From positions 1 to 40,232 of the forward strand of contig DAHVNA010000016.1 in NCBI GenBank assembly GCA_027319565.1: a DNA stretch of 40,232 nt, given 5' to 3'. The translations under genes and the position numbers were made by a program. Shown here in pieces: positions 1,968 to 8,579 of this stretch (within the stretch, counting starts at the first letter, position 1; every line of letters begins with the position of its first letter). This DNA comes from Elusimicrobiota bacterium (GTDB taxonomy: Bacteria > Elusimicrobiota > Elusimicrobia > UBA1565 > UBA9628). The notes beneath the pieces are model-generated. The model saw only the letters and a list, made by a program, of their open reading frames with translations, had not been told where the DNA came from and did not search any database.

Positions 1968-2996
1968 ATGAATGTTTTAGAATTTCTCCGCAAGATGCCA
2001 AAGACGGAACTCCATCTGCATTTAGAGGGCACGATTTCGCCTGAAACTCTCTGGAAAATGGCGCGAAAAAATCACGTCTCTCTTCCAGTCGGCACATTAA
2101 AAGAGCTTCGCGCGCTTTATCAATTCGAGTCTTTTGACAAATTCGTCTCTTTGTGGCAGGCGATGTGCCGCTGCTTTAAATCCGAGTCCGATTACGCGGA
2201 AATGGTGGAAGGCTTTTCCAGGGACTGCCGGAGGCAAAACATCCGCTATGCGGAACTTCATTTTACGCCCTTTAACCACGAGAAATTCGCCATCGGTGGA
2301 AAACGCGCGCTCAAGGTCGTGACAAAAAAACTGGAGGCCTTGGAAAAAGCCGGCGGGCCCATCGTTCGCCTCATTACCGATATCCCAGCCGAAGCCGGAG
2401 ACAAAGCAGGGGAATACACCGCCCGCCTTCTTGAAGAAGAAAAAAACCCCTTGATCGTCGCGATAGGCCTTGGCGGCCCCGAAGCGGGTTTCCCACGCAA
2501 AAAATTTGCGCCTTATTACGAGCGCGCGCGGAAAGCCGGATATTTCTGCGTGGCTCACGCCGGAGAGACGGAAGGACACTCCCATGTTAGGGAAGCGATT
2601 CTCGATTTAAAAGCCATCCGCATTCAACATGGGGTACGCGCCGCGGAAAGCCCACAAACTCTGCGCCTTTTAAAGGAGAGAAACATCTGCTGCGACGTGG
2701 CATTAACCAGCAATCTCTGCTTAAAAGTCGTCAGAAAAATGACGGAACATCCCATCCAAAAACTTCTAGCGGCCAAAATTTCTCTCACCCTTAACACGGA
2801 TGACCCACCGTTTTTTAACACCGATCTAATCCGAGAATATCAAATCGCATATGAGGACTTAGGCTTGAGTCTAGACCGACTCTGGGAGATGAACTTAAAC
2901 GGACTGCGGTATGCTCTTTGCGAAGTCGCCATTCGCCGGCGCCTGATGATGGAATTTAACAATCAGGCGCCGGCTCTCAACAAATTAACGGTTTAG
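1968..2996 (+). CDS. add: Adenosine deaminase
   Basis: PKTELHLHLEG, YAELHFTP, AHAGE, RIQHG, SN and LNTDDP motifs. Start moved to ATG 1968 because the ORF-track start overlaps liuB. Confidence 0.9.
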   Translation: MNVLEFLRKMPKTELHLHLEGTISPETLWKMARKNHVSLPVGTLKELRALYQFESFDKFVSLWQAMCRCFKSESDYAEMVEGFSRDCRRQNIRYAELHFTPFNHEKFAIGGKRALKVVTKKLEALEKAGGPIVRLITDIPAEAGDKAGEYTARLLEEEKNPLIVAIGLGGPEAGFPRKKFAPYYERARKAGYFCVAHAGETEGHSHVREAILDLKAIRIQHGVRAAESPQTLRLLKERNICCDVALTSNLCLKVVRKMTEHPIQKLLAAKISLTLNTDDPPFFNTDLIREYQIAYEDLGLSLDRLWEMNLNGLRYALCEVAIRRRLMMEFNNQAPALNKLTV

Positions 2997-3137
2997 GCAG
3001 ATATGCCCCGGGCTGCAGGGGCTGACGATTTGGGGCTCAACACAGATGTGTCCCGGGCTGCAAGGGCTGACAATGGGAGCCTTTCCAAACGCCATTCCGG
3101 CCGACATCACGGCTAACGACAAGATGATTGATTTCAT
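2985..3137 (-). CDS. 50-aa secreted Cys-rich peptide with tandem IVSPCSPGHIC repeat
   Basis: Strong SD (AAAGGAGG) before ATG 3137. MKSIILSLAVMSAGMAFG looks like a Sec signal. The two 33-nt repeat copies differ at five sites, all synonymous third positions. Confidence 0.8.
   Translation of the reverse strand: MKSIILSLAVMSAGMAFGKAPIVSPCSPGHICVEPQIVSPCSPGHICLNR
2997..3074 (-). repeat. Two 33-nt direct repeats (45-nt period) encoding IVSPCSPGHIC
   Basis: att gtc agc cct tgc agc ccg gga cac atc tgt (3074-3042) versus atc gtc agc ccc tgc agc ccg ggg cat atc tgc (3029-2997). Confidence 0.95.
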
Positions 3138-3228
3138 ATTCTGACCCTCCTTTGGGTTATCTTTTCTCACACCCTTAGGATAGCTCAAAGCCCACCTCAG
3201 CCGCTATGAGGCAAGTTAAGGTCAAAAG

Positions 3229-3242
3229 TTGATTTAAATCAA
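3229..3242. promoter_or_regulatory. Perfect palindrome TTGATTTAAATCAA matching the FNR-box consensus TTGAT-N4-ATCAA
   Basis: Exact consensus match in the intergenic region upstream of the small peptide gene. Confidence 0.45.
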
Positions 3243-3261
3243 GTCTGTTTCCGAAGTAAAA

Positions 3262-4581
3262 TCACTCGTCGCTGAAAATCCCTTTGGCGCGAGAAGCATA
3301 GAAGGCCTCAACTTCCTTCGGAAAAGGAAACACTCTGAGGCGAACAGATTCCTCTAAAGGTAGAAGGCAAGGGATGCGGATGCCGTGGTATTCCGTGGGC
3401 TCACCGATTTGGTGCATCGTGACCCCGCCACGCCGAAGCGCCAGCCACAAAGCCCGCTCGATGGCTGCACAAACGTATGGTACTCCATTTTTTTGAGATT
3501 CCTGGAAAATGGCCAAAATGAGCGCGAGGGAGATTTCGCTGTGGCCTGCGCGAGATAAATCTTTCGATGATGAACTTGCATCCTCGCCACCTAAATTCCG
3601 CGGAATGGCAAAGCGAGAAAACTCTCCTAATTTTTTCCTGTCAATTTGCTCCAATGTTTTCGTAATGTCGTATTCTTTCTCGATAGGGAAACCCTTTTCT
3701 GAGTTTAAAACCAGCCTCGCAGTTCCAACAGCGCGGCCTTGATTGTCGCGAACCAGTAAATGGACGGAAGAGTCGTCATAGATATCTCTCTCAAGCCCAT
3801 CAGGATAATCCGCCGAATTTAAGAACTCATGCTCAACGCAGTAAACTTGATAGCGAAGCCTGAAAATATCCTCTAAATCTTTAGAGTTCTTGGCGCATAA
3901 AACCTCAAAAGCGGGCTTTGGAGAAGCGGGTTTTTCAGAGACTATCGCGGGGACTGTATCTTTCTTGTCTCCTGCATCTCTAGGAACAGACGTTTTTGGC
4001 AATACTTTTTTTAATGCCGCGGCATCCGCCAAAACGATCACGGTGGCCGCGCAGGATTGACTGTCCGAGAAAAATTCCGCGTGAGTCAAGATAGCCTCGG
4101 CATTTTCCGGCATCCGTTTTGTCGCCATGGCGACAATTTCCTGTTTCGTTCCGCGCGAGAGTTTTGGCGCCAGTGAAATAAAAGCCTCTCCGCAATGATC
4201 CGCCAATGACCCCAAAATCCCATGTCCCAAAATATTGGCCACTTCGCTAAAAACCGGGCGATCCATATCCGAATTGCCGATCCTGGTTCCAGTGGCTGCG
4301 GCAATGCTTTTTTCCAGTGGAATCAAACTCCATTCCGGAAACAACATCACGACTTCAAAAAAAAGCGGCTGTGAAATGCCGACAAAAGCGCCCATATTTA
4401 TTCCGATATCCAGCTTGAAAAATTCCGGAATTTTTTCTCTAGCGACCGTTCTTATGCCGGAGAAAGAAACCTTCCATTTGCCTTGGCCGAACTTGGATAA
4501 TTTACGGCCGCTTAAAAGCGCACCGTCATGAAGGATCGTTCCTAACAATTCCAACTCTTTGGGACTCAACAATTCGCTCAC
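3262..4581 (-). CDS. Fusion of a CheC-like phosphatase domain (N-terminal ~195 aa) and an N-acyl amino acid synthase / exosortase-associated-type GNAT acyltransferase (C-terminal)
   Basis: The N-terminal part follows the CheC pattern, with SEVAN followed by P exactly 22 residues later (E-x2-N-x22-P). The C-terminal part has FRLRYQVYCVE, GLERDIYD, VGTARLV, EFSRFAI and IGEPTEYHGIRIP, typical of LuxI/FeeM/TIGR03694-like acyl-ACP acyltransferases. The GTG start overlaps the upstream stop (GTGA). Confidence 0.8.
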   Translation of the reverse strand: MSELLSPKELELLGTILHDGALLSGRKLSKFGQGKWKVSFSGIRTVAREKIPEFFKLDIGINMGAFVGISQPLFFEVVMLFPEWSLIPLEKSIAAATGTRIGNSDMDRPVFSEVANILGHGILGSLADHCGEAFISLAPKLSRGTKQEIVAMATKRMPENAEAILTHAEFFSDSQSCAATVIVLADAAALKKVLPKTSVPRDAGDKKDTVPAIVSEKPASPKPAFEVLCAKNSKDLEDIFRLRYQVYCVEHEFLNSADYPDGLERDIYDDSSVHLLVRDNQGRAVGTARLVLNSEKGFPIEKEYDITKTLEQIDRKKLGEFSRFAIPRNLGGEDASSSSKDLSRAGHSEISLALILAIFQESQKNGVPYVCAAIERALWLALRRGGVTMHQIGEPTEYHGIRIPCLLPLEESVRLRVFPFPKEVEAFYASRAKGIFSDE

Positions 4582-4970
4582 TTAAAAGCCCCCGCGCTAT
4601 TACTGGATGATTGAGCGAATATTTTTGCGACTGCCGCTTGAATGTCGGCCACGGCAAAGGGCTTGGCGAGAAACGCCGCTTTTAACTTCGTCACGATTGA
4701 GCGAGTTTCTTTTTGATCGTTGGCGCTAAGGACCAGGACCTTGGCCTCGGGATACGCCGCTCGCAACTGACGCAAGACGGTCAAGCCGTCCGTGTCCTCG
4801 AAACTGATGTCTAGAATTAAGAGATCCGGATTTAAGCGGCGATAGGTGGCCAAAACATTCTTCCCGTTTGTTTCAACGCCCGCAACCTCGTGTCCTAAAA
4901 CAGCCATCTGCGCGGAGACCAAATCATGAACAACCGGATTATCATCCGCGATCATTATTTTTTTGGACAT
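4578..4970 (-). CDS. Single-domain CheY-like response regulator
   Basis: KKIMIADD, PDLLILD (phosphoacceptor Asp), DG, VLVLSA and AKPF motifs; start placed at ATG 4970 just after the promoter. Confidence 0.9.
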   Translation of the reverse strand: MSKKIMIADDNPVVHDLVSAQMAVLGHEVAGVETNGKNVLATYRRLNPDLLILDISFEDTDGLTVLRQLRAAYPEAKVLVLSANDQKETRSIVTKLKAAFLAKPFAVADIQAAVAKIFAQSSSNSAGAFK

Positions 4971-4977
4971 ATCTATT

Positions 4978-5006
4978 ATTATGGTATTGTAATTGGAAAC
5001 TGTCAA
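4978..5006 (-). promoter_or_regulatory. Sigma70-type promoter of the response regulator operon
   Basis: TTGACA (5006-5001), 17 nt, CATAAT (4983-4978), then 7 nt to ATG 4970. Confidence 0.65.
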
Positions 5007-5035
5007 TATCACGCATCAAATAAACTAAATTTAAT

Positions 5036-5064
5036 TTGACAACTCATCGTGTTTATGCCAGCAT
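5036..5064 (+). promoter_or_regulatory. Sigma70-type promoter of the ACT-ThiF-nitroreductase operon
   Basis: TTGACA (5036-5041), 17 nt, CAGCAT (5059-5064) with an extended TG at 5056-5057. Confidence 0.5.
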
Positions 5065-5071
5065 AGGAATC

Positions 5072-5140
5072 AAGAGCGTTCGTTTGCGCTCTTTAAATAT
5101 CCACGGGTGAAGAGTCACTCTCTCCCAGTGGATATTTAAA
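5072..5140 (+). promoter_or_regulatory. Structured 5' leader with two hairpins
   Basis: AAGAGCG/CGCTCTT (5072-5093) and a perfect 13-bp stem TTTAAATATCCAC/GTGGATATTTAAA (5092-5104 and 5128-5140) with further inner pairing; lies just before the AAGGAG SD. Confidence 0.6.
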
Positions 5141-5160
5141 TAAAAAAAGGAGAAAATAAA

Positions 5161-5604
5161 ATGACACAGAATAATAGCGAGTTCGCAGGGTTTGTACCCG
5201 TCCTAACTGTCCCATTAAGCAATACCCCCGGAGCTCTTGAACCGGTGTTTAAGGTCTTCTCGCAAAACAATGCAGAATTCGCCATGCTCTCTGGCTTTTC
5301 TGCAGGGCCCATGGGTTTTATCGCGTTTGCGTTTAAAAACCCGCAAGACGCACAGAAAGTGCATAAGGGCCTGCTACAGGCGGGCATTTTCAGCAGAATC
5401 ACCGATGCCCTGCGGATCGACACCAAATCCTTCGCCCCAGGAGATCTATGGAATAAGGTGTTCCAGCCCTTTTTCTCAAAGGGGGTTAACGTCGAGTTCT
5501 GCTTTGGATTTGGGGACACGCAATTCTTCTTCACAAGCGACCAAAAGGCCGCGGCCGAAATTCTCAAGCCGTTCTTGTCTACAAAAGAATTCATCTCCGC
5601 CTAA
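5161..5604 (+). CDS. Tandem ACT-domain protein (amino-acid-binding, COG4747-like)
   Basis: Two ACT-like repeats: LTVPLSNTPGALEPVFKVFSQNN and LRIDTKSFAPGDLWNKVFQPFFSKGVNVEFCFGF; SD AAGGAG. Confidence 0.65.
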   Translation: MTQNNSEFAGFVPVLTVPLSNTPGALEPVFKVFSQNNAEFAMLSGFSAGPMGFIAFAFKNPQDAQKVHKGLLQAGIFSRITDALRIDTKSFAPGDLWNKVFQPFFSKGVNVEFCFGFGDTQFFFTSDQKAAAEILKPFLSTKEFISA

Positions 5605-5618
5605 TATATGCGAGCTCG

Positions 5619-5658
5619 GACCGCTCTGGGCGCCTTGTCAAGCGCGCCTGGAGCGGTC
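5619..5658 (+). other. Intergenic GC-rich stem-loop
   Basis: GACCGCTC...GAGCGGTC outer stem with inner GGGCGC/GCGCCT and CTT/AAG pairing; no U-tract. Confidence 0.55.
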
Positions 5659-5711
5659 TCCGTGGCTGGCGCTCCGCCATTAATGTTCAAAGATCATAAG
5701 GATGCATTATA

Positions 5712-6599
5712 ATGGAATTCAAAAATAAATTCGATTACGCAGACGCTTTTTCCCGCAATATTGGATGGGTGACAAAAGAGGAACAAGGAATTTTGCGCAA
5801 GAAAAGAGTGGCTATTGCCGGCATGGGGGGCGTCGGCGGAATTCATCTATTGACCTTGGCGCGTTTGGGCATCGGATCCTTTCACATCGCGGATTTTGAC
5901 GAATTTGAAATTCACAATTTCAATCGTCAAGTGGGGGCGACGATGTCAAGCGTCGGAAGGCCCAAGGCCGAGGTTTTAGCTGAAATGGCCAAAGACATCA
6001 ACCCCGAACTCAATATCAAGATATTCCCCGAGGGAGTCAAGCCTGAAAATCTCTCGGAATTTCTTAAAGACGCCGATCTCTATATTGACGGTCTTGATTT
6101 TTTCGCTTTTTTAGCCCGGGAAAAAACCTTCTCCGCTTGCGCGGAAAAGGGCGTTCCCGCCGTCACCGCGGCTCCTTTGGGAATGAGCGCGGCGACGCTT
6201 AATTTCTTGCCCGGAAAAATGACGTTTGAAGAGTATTTTTGTTGGGGTAATTTGCCGGAAGAAGAAAAGGCTTTGCGCTTCTTATTGGGCTTAGCTCCCG
6301 CTGGGCTCCATTTTAATTATTTAGTTGATCCAAGTTCCGTTAATTTTAAGGAGCGCAAAGGTCCTTCGACCGGAATGGCTTGCCAAATCTGCGCGGGCAT
6401 GGCCGCGACCCAGGCCCTGAAAATTTTGCTCAAGCGCGGTCCGGTTTTAGCCGCGCCCCATAGTATTCAATTTGACGCCTATCGAAACAAGCTTTCGCGC
6501 TGTTGGCGGCCCGGCGGGAACAATAACCCACTCCAACGTTTGGCTTTAATAATTGCTCGGCGCCGCCTGAAAAAAATAGACTCAAGGGAGTCAAAATAA
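5712..6599 (+). CDS. ThiF-family adenylyltransferase (similar to the OxzB ThiF domain)
   Basis: FSRNIG, VAIAGMGGVG nucleotide-binding loop, IADFDEFEIHNFNRQ, GRPKAEV and DGLD motifs; no MoeB Zn-binding CxxC pairs. Confidence 0.9.
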   Translation: MEFKNKFDYADAFSRNIGWVTKEEQGILRKKRVAIAGMGGVGGIHLLTLARLGIGSFHIADFDEFEIHNFNRQVGATMSSVGRPKAEVLAEMAKDINPELNIKIFPEGVKPENLSEFLKDADLYIDGLDFFAFLAREKTFSACAEKGVPAVTAAPLGMSAATLNFLPGKMTFEEYFCWGNLPEEEKALRFLLGLAPAGLHFNYLVDPSSVNFKERKGPSTGMACQICAGMAATQALKILLKRGPVLAAPHSIQFDAYRNKLSRCWRPGGNNNPLQRLALIIARRRLKKIDSRESK

Positions 6600-7642
6600 T
6601 AATCTCTCGAGAAATTATCTCAGAAATCGCCCGCTATGCCCAGATGGCTCCCTCGGGAGACAATCTCCAGGATTGGCGATTCTCTCTAAACGGAGAATCA
6701 CTTGAACTTCTTGCGGAATTCATGGATCACCACCCCTTTAATTTGAATCATCGTCCATCACTGACCTCCCATGGGACGGTCTTGGAAAATGCGCGCATCG
6801 CCTCCGAAGAATTCGGATTTGAGATGATTGAAGAGTTATTCCCCGGGGGGGACATCATCGCCCGCCTTCGATTTTCCAAATCTCCATCTAAAACCCATCA
6901 CCCGCTTTTTCCTTATCTTGAGACGCGCACGGTCAACCGCCGAAATTATTTGCCCAAAGAGCTTCCGCCTGAAATTCGAGAACAACTCATCCAAACCGCC
7001 CAAGATTCAGGTTTTGGACAGCTCTTTCTCGCGGACAAACTCCCCGCTAAAAAATGCGCGGCCAGGGCCGCCTTTTGCGGCTCTCAAATCATGATGGAAC
7101 ATCGCGGCGTCCACCAGAGCCTTTTTCAGAACATTCGCTGGAACCTTGCGGATGCGGAAAAAACCCGGGATGGACTCTATATTAAAACCTTGGAATTGGG
7201 TATTCAAGAGCCAGCCTTTAGGCTTTTGCGCTCTTGGCGGCTCACCTCTATTCTTAATTTCCTTGGCCTGAGCCTTTTCGCGGCTTTCCAGGATTATCAA
7301 TTGTCCATGGGCTCTTCCGCCCTGGGTCTCATTGAAGTCCCCGATGATTCGCCTGAGTCCATTCTCAATGGCGGGAAATTGTTTGAACGACTGTGGCTAA
7401 AAATGACCTCCTTGGGCCTTTCCCTTCAGCCCGAAAGCGCGCTAGTGTATTTTCTTCATTTATTTTGGAATCAACCCAATCACTTTACGCCGTCTCAGCG
7501 CCGGGTTCTTGAAAAAGGAGCGCAAGCTCTCAAAGAAGCGTTCCCTATAAAAAATGATAAGGGGATTCTGATGTTTTTTCGCCTGGGATATGCCTCAAAG
7601 GCGCCTTCCGCCAAAAGCCTCAGAAAACTCGTTCAACTCTAG
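6596..7642 (+). CDS. Nitroreductase-family FMN-dependent oxidoreductase; start uncertain (ATA 6596, or frameshift fusion to ThiF)
   Basis: APSGDNLQDWRF, RTVNRRNY, GKLFERLWLKMTSLGLSLQP and FRLGY motifs. The in-frame upstream helix ISREIISEIARYAQ precedes the ORF-track ATG at 6644. Confidence 0.85.
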   Translation: MIISREIISEIARYAQMAPSGDNLQDWRFSLNGESLELLAEFMDHHPFNLNHRPSLTSHGTVLENARIASEEFGFEMIEELFPGGDIIARLRFSKSPSKTHHPLFPYLETRTVNRRNYLPKELPPEIREQLIQTAQDSGFGQLFLADKLPAKKCAARAAFCGSQIMMEHRGVHQSLFQNIRWNLADAEKTRDGLYIKTLELGIQEPAFRLLRSWRLTSILNFLGLSLFAAFQDYQLSMGSSALGLIEVPDDSPESILNGGKLFERLWLKMTSLGLSLQPESALVYFLHLFWNQPNHFTPSQRRVLEKGAQALKEAFPIKNDKGILMFFRLGYASKAPSAKSLRKLVQL

Positions 7643-7721
7643 CCCCGCAAGGGAAAAACCGCTAGGTCCAAAGACCCTCCGGGGTCTAGGCCCTTTGGCC
7701 CTGTCGGCGGGGCAAAACCCG

Positions 7722-7730
7722 TGATATACT
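7722..7730 (+). promoter_or_regulatory. Extended -10 element (TGaTATACT) 6 nt before ATG 7737
   Basis: Read directly from the sequence; no SD before the start. Confidence 0.55.
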
Positions 7731-7736
7731 GGACTT

Positions 7737-8579
7737 ATGGTGAGATTATATCGTTGTCTGATGGTCTTATCCTTCGTTGTCGCCTTAAGCCCCAAAATCG
7801 CCCATTCACAAAAGGGAAATGCCGCAGGCAAGGCGCCGATACTGGCGATGGCGGGCTTCCCATCTCCCGATGTTGACGTCAATCGCCTGAACTGGATGTT
7901 TGACCGGGAAATAACCAAGATTCAAGGAGCCGTTCCCGCGCCGAAACCCCAAGCCTCATCCAAAAAAGCCTTGGATAAACCCGTCAATCTCATCGGACTT
8001 CCAAGAAAAACCTTTTTAAAGATTCCTCCACCGCCTGTTTTCACGCGCTATGGGCGGCTTTTTAGCCAATTTACCTCCCATCCGCAAAAGACCGACCAGT
8101 ATGACCCCATCATCCTCAAATACGCCTCCATCTATCATCTCGACCCCCGGCTGATTAAAGCCGTCATCGCGGCCGAGTCCGGCTTCAACGAAAACGCGGT
8201 GTCTCAAAGGGGAGCGCGGGGGCTTATGCAGGTCGTGCCGAGAACGGCTTCTCATTTTGGAATTTCTTCTTATCGGCTTTTCTTTGGAGACGATAATATC
8301 GCGGCCGGAAGCGCCTATTTGGCGAATCTCTTTGCCAACATTTTAAAGAAGCTGGGCTTAAGCGGCGCCAAGGTCAAGCATTTGCCGAATTGGGTCATCG
8401 AGCGGGTCATTGCAGCCTATCACGCCGGTCCGCGCTTTTTAAAGAGCCGCTGGCTCTACCGCTCGACCCGCGAGTATGTCCGCAAAGTCATGCTCTTCTA
8501 TCATTCTCCGGTTTCTCAAATCAGAAACCCTCCATCGCCCCCAAAATCATTAGCGACGCGCTTTATCGCGGAAATTTAA
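7737..8579 (+). CDS. Secreted lytic transglycosylase (SLT domain)
   Basis: Signal peptide; LIKAVIAAESGFN (catalytic Glu), SQRGARGLMQ, NIAAG, AAYHAG and TREYVRKV motifs. Confidence 0.9.
   Translation: MVRLYRCLMVLSFVVALSPKIAHSQKGNAAGKAPILAMAGFPSPDVDVNRLNWMFDREITKIQGAVPAPKPQASSKKALDKPVNLIGLPRKTFLKIPPPPVFTRYGRLFSQFTSHPQKTDQYDPIILKYASIYHLDPRLIKAVIAAESGFNENAVSQRGARGLMQVVPRTASHFGISSYRLFFGDDNIAAGSAYLANLFANILKKLGLSGAKVKHLPNWVIERVIAAYHAGPRFLKSRWLYRSTREYVRKVMLFYHSPVSQIRNPPSPPKSLATRFIAEI

What the first reader, a model, noticed from the sequence alone, without database searches (positions are those of the whole stretch)
2985..7642. Divergent locus coupling a CheY/CheC signalling module to an N-acyl amino acid / oxazolone-type biosynthetic pathway
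Seen: two back-to-back TTGACA promoters. The minus-strand arm is response regulator, CheC-acyltransferase fusion, small Cys peptide. The plus-strand arm is ACT protein, ThiF, nitroreductase. The locus sits between housekeeping genes. Established: an N-acyltransferase (OxzA) together with a ThiF-nitroreductase enzyme (OxzB) converts amino acids into N-acyl amino acids and then oxazolones in proteobacteria. Inference: this is an oxazolone-like or acyl-amino-acid signal or metabolite pathway whose output is gated by phosphorylation state (CheY/CheC) and amino-acid level (ACT). I know of no description of such a layout.
Basis: partly seen in the sequence, partly recalled or inferred. Interest (0 to 1): 0.88.

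Follow-up and report, generated by a model that had tools for sequence, protein, structure and literature searches.

The report
Oxazolone-type pathway with fused CheC switch
A 4.4-kb five-gene cassette in an uncultivated bacterium encodes the three enzyme types of the known N-acyl-amino-acid/oxazolone pathway, and its acyltransferase is fused to a CheC-type phosphatase domain and paired with a CheY-like receiver, which likely lets a phosphorylation signal switch the enzyme directly, a form of control not found described for these poorly understood molecules.

Summary
The genes exist as described, with corrections. Minus arm: a CheY-like receiver (4578-4970) translationally coupled to a 439-aa fusion of a CheC-family domain and a TIGR03694/FeeM-type N-acyl amino acid synthase (3262-4581). 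Plus arm: a 147-aa orphan (ACT fold not confirmed), a PRK08223-type ThiF and an FDO-type nitroreductase. The enzyme trio, split and divergent, is already known (TyzACB of Mycobacterium; separate NAS, ThiF and nitroreductase genes in Thalassotalea, Massilia, Stieleria), so the chemistry is a new member of a known kind. The coupling is new. The CheC::NAS fusion is one of 1.84 billion representative proteins. A second genus has receiver, CheC-like and NAS as three adjacent genes. Other relatives fuse receiver to CheC-like. The CheC site E-x2-N-x22-P is kept. A complex model docks the receiver's phosphorylation site on that helix (0.80; best control 0.01), though a like complex is solved. One sister genome lacks exactly window ~3261-7655. 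It keeps the small Cys peptide, so that gene is not part of the unit. The ACT-like gene is missing from 2 of 4 cassette-bearing genomes of the genus. Best reading: a phosphorelay-gated acyl-oxazolone or N-acyl-dehydro-amino-acid synthase. This is a new variant of a known kind, of moderate interest.

The parts
3261..7655 (.). Limits of the five-gene cassette, present or absent as a block within the genus
   Evidence: G005 (same genus, 94% complete) has SLT next to the small-peptide gene. Its junction matches the window up to about 3260 and again from about 7656.
4578..4970 (-). Single-domain CheY-like receiver (130 aa from MSKK). Acidic pair D9/D10, phospho-acceptor D54 and K103 are invariant among 9 orthologues and neighbours of CheC-like genes.
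   Evidence: Pfam Response_reg E 6.5e-19. Alignment A6. The stop overlaps the GTG start of the fusion gene by 4 nt.
3982..4581 (-). CheC-family domain (residues 1 to about 200 of the 439-aa fusion) with one retained active site, E113-x2-N116-x22-P139. The first CheC site is not conserved.
   Evidence: Family profile against PDB: CheC 3qta E 1.8e-17, 2f9z/1xkr 9e-15. N116 is invariant; E113 and P139 are kept in at least 90% of 42 sequences. The complex model puts residues 109-140 on the receiver's phosphorylation site.
3343..3912 (-). N-acyl amino acid synthase domain (residues 224-413) of the fusion
   Evidence: TIGR03694 152.3 bits, above its 111.95 cut-off. pLDDT above 90 over about residues 230-410. 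Foldseek: LasI 2.1e-9, FeeM 1.5e-8, BjaI 4.4e-8.
4971..5160 (.). Divergent control region. It holds the minus-strand promoter TTGACA-17-CATAAT (5006..4978) ending 7 nt before the receiver's ATG, a plus-strand TTGACA at 5036-5041, and two leader hairpins at about 5073-5092 and 5093-5139.
   Evidence: conserved in G003; fold z-score -4.46. No Rfam family matched.
5161..5604 (+). 147-aa orphan protein with a strong RBS. It is possibly a tandem ACT-like fold; this is unconfirmed.
   Evidence: Only its own 90% cluster among 5.8 billion clusters. dN/dS about 0.08 against G003. Sub-threshold ACT hits. Atlas ACT neighbours at 0.85-0.87. Model pLDDT 44.7. Absent in G001, G004 and G295.
5610..5669 (+). 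Strong hairpin between the orphan gene and ThiF
   Evidence: fold of 5600-5715: -47.7 kcal/mol, z-score -3.19.
5712..6599 (+). ThiF-like adenylating cyclase of the PRK08223 type
   Evidence: NF006077 450.7 bits (cut-off 266). N-terminal half of NF011424 at E 1.2e-96. The nearest solved relative is TcdA, the ct6A oxazolone-forming dehydratase, at E 6.7e-17.
6644..7642 (+). Flavin-dependent oxidase (FDO)-type nitroreductase
   Evidence: C-terminal half of NF011424 at E 3.5e-52, Rv1355c (TrzS) family at 2.5e-37, Acg family at 1.4e-31.

Best explanation
This is a 4.4-kb five-gene cassette that encodes a split OxzAB/TyzACB-type pathway, and its acyltransferase is likely switched at the protein level by a phosphorylated CheY-like receiver that is predicted to dock on the enzyme's fused CheC-family domain. 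Shown by the sequence: the domain identities, the fusion, the translational coupling of receiver and fusion genes, and the block-wise presence or absence of the cassette. Inferred from characterised homologues: the NAS domain N-acylates an amino acid, probably an aromatic one, from acyl-CoA or acyl-ACP. The ThiF-like enzyme then adenylates and cyclises the product, and the FDO nitroreductase desaturates it with O2. The result would be an N-acyl oxazolone or, after ring opening, an N-acyl dehydro-amino acid. Inferred mechanism of control: an unidentified histidine kinase (none lies in the window) phosphorylates the receiver at D54. Receiver~P binds the E113/N116 helix of the CheC-like domain and changes NAS activity, by analogy with CheC, whose binding to the enzyme CheD is strengthened by CheY-P. 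The CheC site then hydrolyses the phosphate and makes the pulse self-limiting. The direction of the effect (on or off) is unknown. The 147-aa orphan is an accessory found in one sublineage only.
For: Enzyme trio: TIGR03694, NF006077, and the two halves of the fusion family NF011424 and of the Rv1355c family. The NAS fold matches LasI, FeeM and BjaI, the same neighbours reported for TyzA (PMC10404671, section read). The published pathways use exactly these activities.

Functional unit: G005 lacks exactly window ~3261-7655.

Coupling of the signalling module to the enzyme. (a) The CheC::NAS fusion is found in 4 of 6 genomes of the genus, the window's own included. (b) G295, from another genus, has the receiver, a separate 200-aa CheC-like gene and an NAS gene overlapping it by 11 nt, divergent from a DAHP synthase and ThiF pair. 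(c) 3 of 43 representative homologues of the domain are receiver::CheC-like fusions; the best is 42% identical. (d) A receiver gene lies directly upstream of the CheC-like gene in 5 of 5 related loci examined.

Active site: N116 is invariant, and E113 and P139 are kept in at least 90% of 42 sequences. This matches the published E-X2-N...P motif (PMC12887009, passages). The receiver keeps D9, D10, D54 and K103.

Complex model: score 0.80 with best control 0.01. That mark was reached by 116 of 157 solved complexes and 2 of 215 mismatched pairs. The runs agree in at least 98% of contacts and the partner's pLDDT is at least 87. The interface is CheC residues 109-140 against receiver residues 10-14, 55-63, 82-89 and 103-104.

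Precedent for CheC as a CheY-P-dependent regulator of an enzyme: PMC3513319 (start of the abstract, seen in the listing). O2 use is plausible: the genome has two COX1 genes and one cytochrome bd gene. An aromatic substrate is hinted at by the DAHP synthase next to ThiF in G295.
Against: No product, activity or binding was measured. The complex pass may reflect likeness to the solved CheX-CheY3 complex (3HZH, named in PMC12887009), and my own alignments were used. The CheC-like domain folded poorly inside the full-length model (pLDDT 40-60), so no contact between it and the NAS domain can be read. The D/S position four residues before E113 is Pro in the window, and G295 has Asp in place of E113. 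No kinase is in the window: none of the 29 HATPase_c hits of the genome lies on this contig. In other families the receiver plus CheC-like pair occurs without any NAS, so the pair can work without the enzyme. The ThiF and nitroreductase were not placed on a tree with OxzB, TyzB or TyzC. In Thalassotalea, Massilia and Stieleria the same gene trio yields N-acyl dehydrotyrosines and no oxazolone was observed (PMC12479983), so the end product is uncertain.
Confidence: 0.6

Rival explanations
1. The information flows the other way. The NAS domain acts as a metabolite-sensing input (acyl-CoA, amino acid or product occupancy) that tunes the CheC-like phosphatase. This sets the level of receiver~P, which then acts elsewhere, for example on the flagellar motor or another CheY target.
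For: The receiver is a single-domain CheY type with no output domain. The genome has one CheA/CheW cluster, on contig C37. The receiver plus CheC-like pair exists without NAS in other families, so the pair has an output of its own there.
Against: The whole cassette, ThiF and nitroreductase included, is gained or lost as one block. That fits a biosynthetic unit with its own regulator better than a sensor. The NAS keeps the near-invariant residues of its family.
Confidence: 0.15
2. The CheC-like domain and the receiver are a phosphatase and phosphate-sink pair that merely travels with the biosynthetic genes. The fusion has no regulatory effect on the enzyme.
For: No interdomain contact could be modelled. 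Gene fusions of neighbours can be neutral.
Against: The association holds in two genera in two architectures, fused and as three coupled genes, with overlapping reading frames. It is rare and specific: 1 of 43 representative homologues, and 5 of 78 genomes of the family.
Confidence: 0.12
3. One reading: output is gated jointly by phosphorylation (CheY/CheC) and by amino-acid level through an ACT protein, with the small Cys peptide as part of the minus-strand arm.
For: Sub-threshold ACT hits and ACT neighbours in the Atlas. The orphan gene is under purifying selection and has a structured leader.
Against: The ACT fold is unconfirmed. The gene is absent from G001, G004 and G295, which keep the rest. 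It came in together with a different ThiF lineage. The peptide gene persists without the cassette and has its own promoter elements.
Confidence: 0.08

Closest known systems
TyzA / TyzB / TyzC (Rv2336, Rv2338c, Rv2337c) N-acyl tyrazolone pathway of Mycobacterium tuberculosis (PMC10404671)
   Same: It has the same three separate enzymes (NAS-type acyltransferase, ThiF-like cyclase, FDO nitroreductase), with the acyltransferase gene divergent from the other two.
   Different: TyzA has no CheC-like domain and no adjacent receiver is described in the sections I read. The gene order of ThiF and nitroreductase differs. Sequence relatedness to TyzB and TyzC was not measured here.
OxzA / OxzB of Pseudoalteromonas rubra and TrzA / TrzS (Rv1356c / Rv1355c) (bioRxiv 10.1101/2020.06.11.147165; PMC12856293)
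   Same: The chemistry is the same. The window's ThiF and nitroreductase match the two halves of the ThiF-nitroreductase fusion families NF011424 and NF005901.
   Different: There ThiF and nitroreductase are one polypeptide; here they are two genes. The only regulatory context noted in print is that c-di-GMP turnover genes lie next to trzAS. 'Response regulator' and 'CheC' occur 0 times in the OxzAB preprint.
N-acyl dehydrotyrosine clusters (thalassotalic acids, kyonggic acids, stieleriacines; PMC12479983)
   Same: NAS, ThiF-family and nitroreductase-family genes are separate ORFs in one cluster.
   Different: Those clusters add methyltransferases. No CheY/CheC module is mentioned in the passages I read. 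Their observed products are open-chain dehydro-amino acids.
CheC / CheX / FliY CheY-P phosphatases, and the CheC-CheD-CheY-P adaptation module of Bacillus subtilis (PMC12887009; PMC3513319)
   Same: Homologous domain, retained E-x2-N...P site, a paired CheY-like receiver, and a precedent for CheC controlling an enzyme partner in a CheY-P-dependent way.
   Different: It lies outside any chemotaxis operon. It has a single site, like CheX, on a CheC-length scaffold. It is covalently fused to a biosynthetic acyltransferase instead of binding CheD.
Earlier notes of this scan: a PilZ::N-acyltransferase operon with nitroreductase and ThiF (e1-1126586), and oxazolone synthases beside 7TM sensor kinases (e1-7218936)
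   Same: A signalling input is attached to, or encoded next to, the oxazolone-type enzymes.
   Different: The input type differs (c-di-GMP receptor or membrane kinase against a CheY/CheC phosphorelay). These are unchecked AI notes on other genomes.

Membership tests
OxzAB / TyzACB / TrzAS-type acyl-oxazolone pathway | NAS/FeeM-type N-acyltransferase encoded in the cluster | tested here: met
   TIGR03694 152.3 bits, above its 111.95 cut-off, and FeeM at E 6.5e-10. Fold hits LasI, FeeM and BjaI.
OxzAB / TyzACB / TrzAS-type acyl-oxazolone pathway | ThiF-like ATP-dependent cyclase related to the ThiF half of the fusion enzymes | tested here: met
   NF006077 450.7 bits. NF011424 N-terminal half at E 1.2e-96, NF005901 at 2e-19. 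The GxGxxG-like 'GMGGVGG' and 'DFDEFEIHNFNRQ' are visible in the translation; reading these as the ATP motif is from recall.
OxzAB / TyzACB / TrzAS-type acyl-oxazolone pathway | FDO-A-type nitroreductase next to the ThiF gene | tested here: met
   NF011424 C-terminal half at E 3.5e-52 and Rv1355c family at 2.5e-37. The gene follows ThiF after 44 nt. Pfam Nitroreductase is below its cut-off.
OxzAB / TyzACB / TrzAS-type acyl-oxazolone pathway | Placement with OxzB, TyzB, TyzC or TrzS in a tree or similarity network | not tested
   No reference sequences were available from the tools. The trees hold only unnamed homologues of the same phylum; there, split and fused forms are interleaved.
OxzAB / TyzACB / TrzAS-type acyl-oxazolone pathway | Formation of N-acyl amino acid and oxazolone products | not testable with these tools
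   Needs expression and LC-MS.
CheC / CheX / FliY phosphatase family | Sequence homology to solved CheC | tested here: met
   Profile A3 against PDB: 3qta 1.8e-17, 2f9z/1xkr 9e-15. The single sequence alone gives only NF041093 at E 2.2e-4 and no Pfam hit.
CheC / CheX / FliY phosphatase family | Active-site consensus D/S-X3-E-X2-N-X21/22-P | tested here: inconclusive
   E113, N116 and P139 are present and conserved. The D/S position is Pro109. The first CheC site is not conserved in the family (alignment).
CheC / CheX / FliY phosphatase family | Docking of a CheY-like receiver at the active-site helix | tested here: met
   In silico only. Complex score 0.80 with best control 0.01; the mark was reached by 116 of 157 solved and 2 of 215 mismatched pairs; runs agree in at least 98% of contacts; partner pLDDT at least 87. 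A like complex is solved, so the pass may show likeness only.
CheC / CheX / FliY phosphatase family | Encoded within a chemotaxis or flagellar gene cluster | tested here: not met
   The only CheW/CheA cluster found lies on contig C37. Related receiver plus CheC-like pairs sit among unrelated genes.
TIGR03694 'PEP-CTERM/exosortase system-associated acyltransferase' | Genome carries an exosortase (EpsH) system | tested here: not met
   PF09721 was not found in G000, which is 91.65% complete. The HMM membership itself is met.
ACT domain proteins | Pfam ACT-clan hit at the gathering score, or a confident ACT fold | tested here: not met
   ACT 14.8 bits against a cut-off of 27; ACT_8 13.6 bits against 23.5. 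Model pLDDT 44.7. The only leads are Atlas features at 0.85-0.87 and PDB 2f06 at E 0.12.

The most novel reading that the evidence does not exclude
CheC-family domains are not confined to chemotaxis. Here one serves as a built-in phospho-CheY receptor and timer on a small-molecule synthase, so that a two-component phosphorelay controls production of an acyl-oxazolone-type signal at the enzyme level in seconds, without transcription. The stand-alone receiver plus CheC-like pairs scattered through related families would then be portable switch modules that can be plugged onto different enzymes.
Probability: 0.35. Interest if true: 0.75.

Novelty: new variant of a known kind. Interest (0 to 1): 0.58.

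Why it matters
The physiological role and the regulation of bacterial N-acyl oxazolones are stated to be a major unresolved question (PMC12856293, Discussion). A cassette in which the first enzyme is fused to a phospho-receiver-binding domain gives a direct handle that can be tested in vitro on when the pathway is switched on. It supports the idea that these lipids are signal or stress molecules. It would also be a rare case of a CheY/CheC module recruited to control metabolism post-translationally, which broadens what CheC-family domains are thought to do.

Tried and rejected
1. A tree of the ThiF and nitroreductase with OxzB, TyzB, TyzC and TrzS could not be made.

The three-sequence alignment A5 found only 4 loci in genome contigs, all unnamed MAGs, and nothing in metagenome contigs. 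P0131 alone gave two weak partial hits. The context of the receiver::CheC-like fusions is therefore unknown.

3. The structure of the orphan protein failed (pLDDT 44.7), so no fold search was run on it. Its sequence gave only E 0.12 against PDB.

4. The CheC-like part of the full-length model was poor, so I cannot say how the two domains of the fusion touch.

5. Rfam found nothing in 2800-7900, so the leader hairpins remain unassigned.

6. I rejected the idea that the NAS N-terminal extension in G160 (L042) is also CheC-like: hhalign probability 0.1.

7. Taxonomy was not obtained. The records are titled 'MAG: bacterium'. The nearest named nitroreductase homologue is 42% identical, from a 'Deltaproteobacteria bacterium' MAG.

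8. The Atlas search of the small peptide gave no usable hit.

9. Literature searches for a CheC-acyltransferase link found none, but 'chec' also matches 'check', so one search is noisy. No supplementary files of any paper were opened. The genome-neighbourhood figures and tables of PMC10404671 and PMC12856293 could mention regulators that I did not see.

Full report
WHAT IS THERE

Six ORFs fill window 2985-7642.

On the minus strand:
- A receiver. The longest ORF is 4578-5012. The orthologues start at the ATG at 4970, MSKK....
- A 439-aa protein (3262-4581). Its GTG start overlaps the receiver's stop by 4 nt.
- After 73 nt, a small ORF (2985-3188).

On the plus strand:
- A 147-aa ORF with an AGGAG ribosome-binding site (5161-5604).
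- A ThiF-family gene (5712-6599).
- A nitroreductase-fold gene (6644-7642).

The flanks are an adenosine deaminase and an SLT lytic transglycosylase.

IDENTITIES

The receiver hits Response_reg at E 6.5e-19. It keeps D9, D10, D54 and K103, numbered from MSKK, all invariant among nine related receivers.

The C-terminal half of the 439-aa protein is an N-acyl amino acid synthase (NAS):
- TIGR03694 scores 152.3 bits against a cut-off of 111.95. FeeM, Autoind_synth and Acetyltransf_5 also hit.
- The structure model is confident there, with pLDDT above 90 for about residues 230-410.
- Foldseek returns LasI (2.1e-9), TofI, FeeM (1.5e-8) and BjaI. FeeM and BjaI are the neighbours reported for TyzA (PMC10404671, section read).

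The N-terminal 200 residues are weak as a single sequence: NF041093 at E 2.2e-4 and no Pfam hit. An exhaustive search of 1.84 billion representative proteins found 43 homologues. A 42-row alignment built from 37 of them, four stand-alone homologues translated from genome loci and the window's own domain matches solved CheC structures at E 1.8e-17 and 9e-15.

In that alignment N116 is invariant, and E113 and P139 are kept in at least 90% of sequences. This is the E-X2-N...P phosphatase motif of the CheC/CheX/FliY family (PMC12887009, passages). Only the second of CheC's two sites is kept. The D/S position is Pro in the window.

The ThiF gene is a full-score member of NF006077 (450.7 bits; cut-off 266). 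It also matches the N-terminal half of the ThiF-nitroreductase fusion family NF011424 at E 1.2e-96. The nitroreductase matches the C-terminal half of NF011424 (3.5e-52), the Rv1355c family (2.5e-37) and the Acg family (1.4e-31). Rv1355c is TrzS, the tryptazolone synthetase (PMC12856293). The nearest solved relative of the ThiF is TcdA (6.7e-17). According to the ThiF review, TcdA makes the oxazolone ring of ct6A (PMC12596934).

THE TWO DOUBTFUL MEMBERS

The 147-aa protein is a real gene: dN/dS is about 0.08 against G003. It is also an orphan. Only its own 90% cluster appears among 5.8 billion clusters.

The evidence for an ACT fold is weak and consists of:
- sub-threshold Pfam hits (ACT E 0.025, ACT_8 0.058, ACT_AHAS_ss 0.11);
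- language-model neighbours at 0.85-0.87;
- PDB 2f06 at E 0.12.

The structure model failed (pLDDT 44.7).

The small ORF is also real (dN/dS about 0.03). Its true start is MKSII at 3137. It encodes a signal-peptide-like N-terminus and two IVSPCSPGHIC repeats. It has its own AAGGAGG ribosome-binding site and a perfect TTGATTTAAATCAA palindrome upstream.

THE UNIT IS A CASSETTE

Within the genus, G001, G003 and G004 carry the locus in the same place. G005 is 94% complete. It has no nitroreductase homologue, and its SLT gene lies directly beside the small-peptide gene. Its junction matches the window up to about 3260 and again from about 7656.

So receiver, CheC::NAS, orphan, ThiF and nitroreductase come and go as one 4.4-kb block. 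The peptide gene stays behind.

G001 and G004 lack the orphan gene, and their ThiF is only 47% identical to the window's. On trees the four nitroreductases form one clade (100/100). The ThiF genes split into two lineages: G000 and G003 with G203 (96/94), and G001 and G004 with G314 and G207 (90/97). The ThiF gene, together with the orphan, has therefore been exchanged in one sublineage.

THE COUPLING OF SIGNALLING MODULE AND ENZYME

The full-length fusion is rare.
- It forms 4 clusters among 118 hits in the 5.8-billion-cluster search. The other 114 hits cover at most 51% of the query, the NAS part only.
- It is 1 of the 43 representative homologues of the domain.
- Among the 78 genomes of the family that were searched, it or a close CheC-like homologue is in 5. 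That is 4 of 6 in the window's genus, own genome included, and 1 of 38 in a second genus.

The second-genus genome is G295. It has the same parts unfused: the receiver, a 200-aa CheC-like gene, and an NAS gene (TIGR03694 150 bits) overlapping it by 11 nt. These are divergent from a DAHP synthase (TIGR00034 477 bits) followed by a ThiF (NF006077 348 bits).

Three of the 43 homologues are receiver::CheC-like fusions. In 5 of 5 related loci a receiver gene sits immediately upstream of a stand-alone CheC-like gene, among unrelated genes rather than chemotaxis genes. The receiver and the CheC-like domain are therefore an established pair. In two genera this pair is attached to the acyltransferase.

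A complex model of the window's receiver with the CheC-like domain scored 0.80, with a best control of 0.01. That mark was reached by 116 of 157 solved complexes and by 2 of 215 mismatched pairs. The runs agree in at least 98% of contacts, and the partner's pLDDT is at least 87.

The interface places residues 109-140, which include E113 and N116, against receiver residues 10-14, 55-63, 82-89 and 103-104. These residues surround the phosphorylation site. A CheX-CheY3 complex is solved (3HZH, cited in PMC12887009) and I used my own alignments. The pass therefore shows likeness. It does not prove that this copy binds.

HOW IT MOST LIKELY WORKS

The following steps are inferred from characterised homologues.
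- The NAS N-acylates an amino acid. An aromatic one is likely, given the published pathways and the DAHP synthase in G295.
- The ThiF-like enzyme cyclises the product with ATP.
- The FDO desaturates it with O2. The genome has two heme-copper oxidase genes and a cytochrome bd gene, so O2 exposure is plausible.
- The product would be an N-acyl oxazolone or an N-acyl dehydro-amino acid. The latter is what was observed in Thalassotalea, Massilia and Stieleria with the same gene trio (PMC12479983).

The control is also inferred. An unidentified kinase phosphorylates the receiver. Receiver~P docks on the CheC-like domain, changes NAS activity and is then dephosphorylated.

The precedent is CheC, whose binding to the enzyme CheD is strengthened by CheY-P (PMC3513319, start of the abstract in the listing).

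No kinase lies in the window: none of the genome's 29 HATPase_c hits is on this contig.

A related genome, G160, has a classical HAMP kinase and an OmpR-type regulator directly upstream of two NAS genes and a ThiF. Two-component control of such clusters therefore recurs, there at the transcriptional level.

WHAT SPEAKS AGAINST THIS READING, OR IS OPEN

- Nothing was measured.
- The CheC-like domain folded poorly within the full-length model.
- The D/S motif position is not kept, and G295 has Asp at the position of E113.
- The receiver plus CheC-like pair works without NAS in other families.
- The reverse flow of information, from enzyme occupancy to phosphatase activity, is not excluded.
- No tree with OxzB, TyzB or TyzC was possible.
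- The family name 'exosortase-associated' does not fit. No exosortase was found in this 91.65%-complete genome.

COMPARISON WITH WHAT IS KNOWN, AND NOVELTY

The enzyme trio, its split form and the divergent layout are in print:
- tyzA-tyzBC (PMC10404671; abstract, sections 5 and 11 read);
- separate NAS, ThiF and nitroreductase genes (PMC12479983; passages read);
- the fused forms OxzB and TrzS (bioRxiv 10.1101/2020.06.11.147165, passages; PMC12856293, passages and Discussion).

I found no description of a CheY/CheC module on these pathways.
- The preprint has 0 occurrences of 'response regulator' and of 'CheC'.
- The TrzAS paper notes only adjacent c-di-GMP turnover genes.
- Searches gave nothing relevant. 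One search is noisy, and no supplements were opened.

Earlier notes of this scan, on other genomes, report other signalling inputs on oxazolone-type operons: a PilZ::N-acyltransferase fusion (e1-1126586) and 7TM sensor kinases (e1-7218936). I did not check them. They suggest a wider theme.

VERDICT

This is a new variant of a known kind. The chemistry is ordinary and the mode of control is new. The finding has moderate interest because it offers a direct experimental handle on how and when oxazolone-type lipids are made.

Noticed in passing
window 2985-3242 (-): A conserved small secreted-type peptide gene (true start 3137; MKSII... signal-like N-terminus, then two IVSPCSPGHIC repeats). It has its own RBS and a perfect FNR/CRP-like palindrome TTGATTTAAATCAA at 3229-3242 (1 match in the window; 0.08 expected). 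It is present in all 5 genus genomes examined, including G005, which lacks the cassette. No family or Atlas hit.
   Followed up: partly
L011 (G001), L012 (G004) against window 5161-6599: Within one genus the ThiF gene belongs to two different lineages (47% identity), while the adjacent nitroreductase is monophyletic. The lineage in the window comes with the 147-aa orphan gene. In G001 the ThiF and receiver start codons are only about 40 nt apart.
   Followed up: partly
L047 = G295:C61:1106-2197 (-): A DAHP synthase (TIGR00034 477 bits) stands directly upstream of the ThiF gene, in the place where the window has the orphan protein. This hints at a dedicated aromatic amino-acid supply. An IS481-like transposase lies downstream of the NAS gene on this 5.9-kb contig.
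   Followed up: partly
L042 = G160:C1:801000-820999 and other G160 loci: One genome of the same class has five PRK08223-type ThiF copies (split, fused to nitroreductase, and fused to a methyltransferase). One cluster reads HAMP histidine kinase, OmpR-type regulator, two NAS genes, ThiF. The first NAS ORF has a 240-residue N-terminal extension of unknown type that is not CheC-like (hhalign probability 0.1).
   Followed up: partly
window 5045-5165 and 5600-5715 (+): A structured leader lies before the orphan gene (two hairpins; fold z-score -4.46) and a strong hairpin lies between the orphan and ThiF (z-score -3.19). No Rfam family matches either.
   Followed up: partly
G000:C33:10196-10687 (-): A second, distant CheC-like ORF in the same genome (E 1.4e-5, 23% identity), with counterparts in G001, G002 and G003. 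It may be the canonical chemotaxis phosphatase.
   Followed up: no
window 4978-5006 (-): The receiver's promoter-like site ends 7 nt before its ATG, so the receiver and CheC::NAS transcript may be leaderless or nearly so.
   Followed up: no
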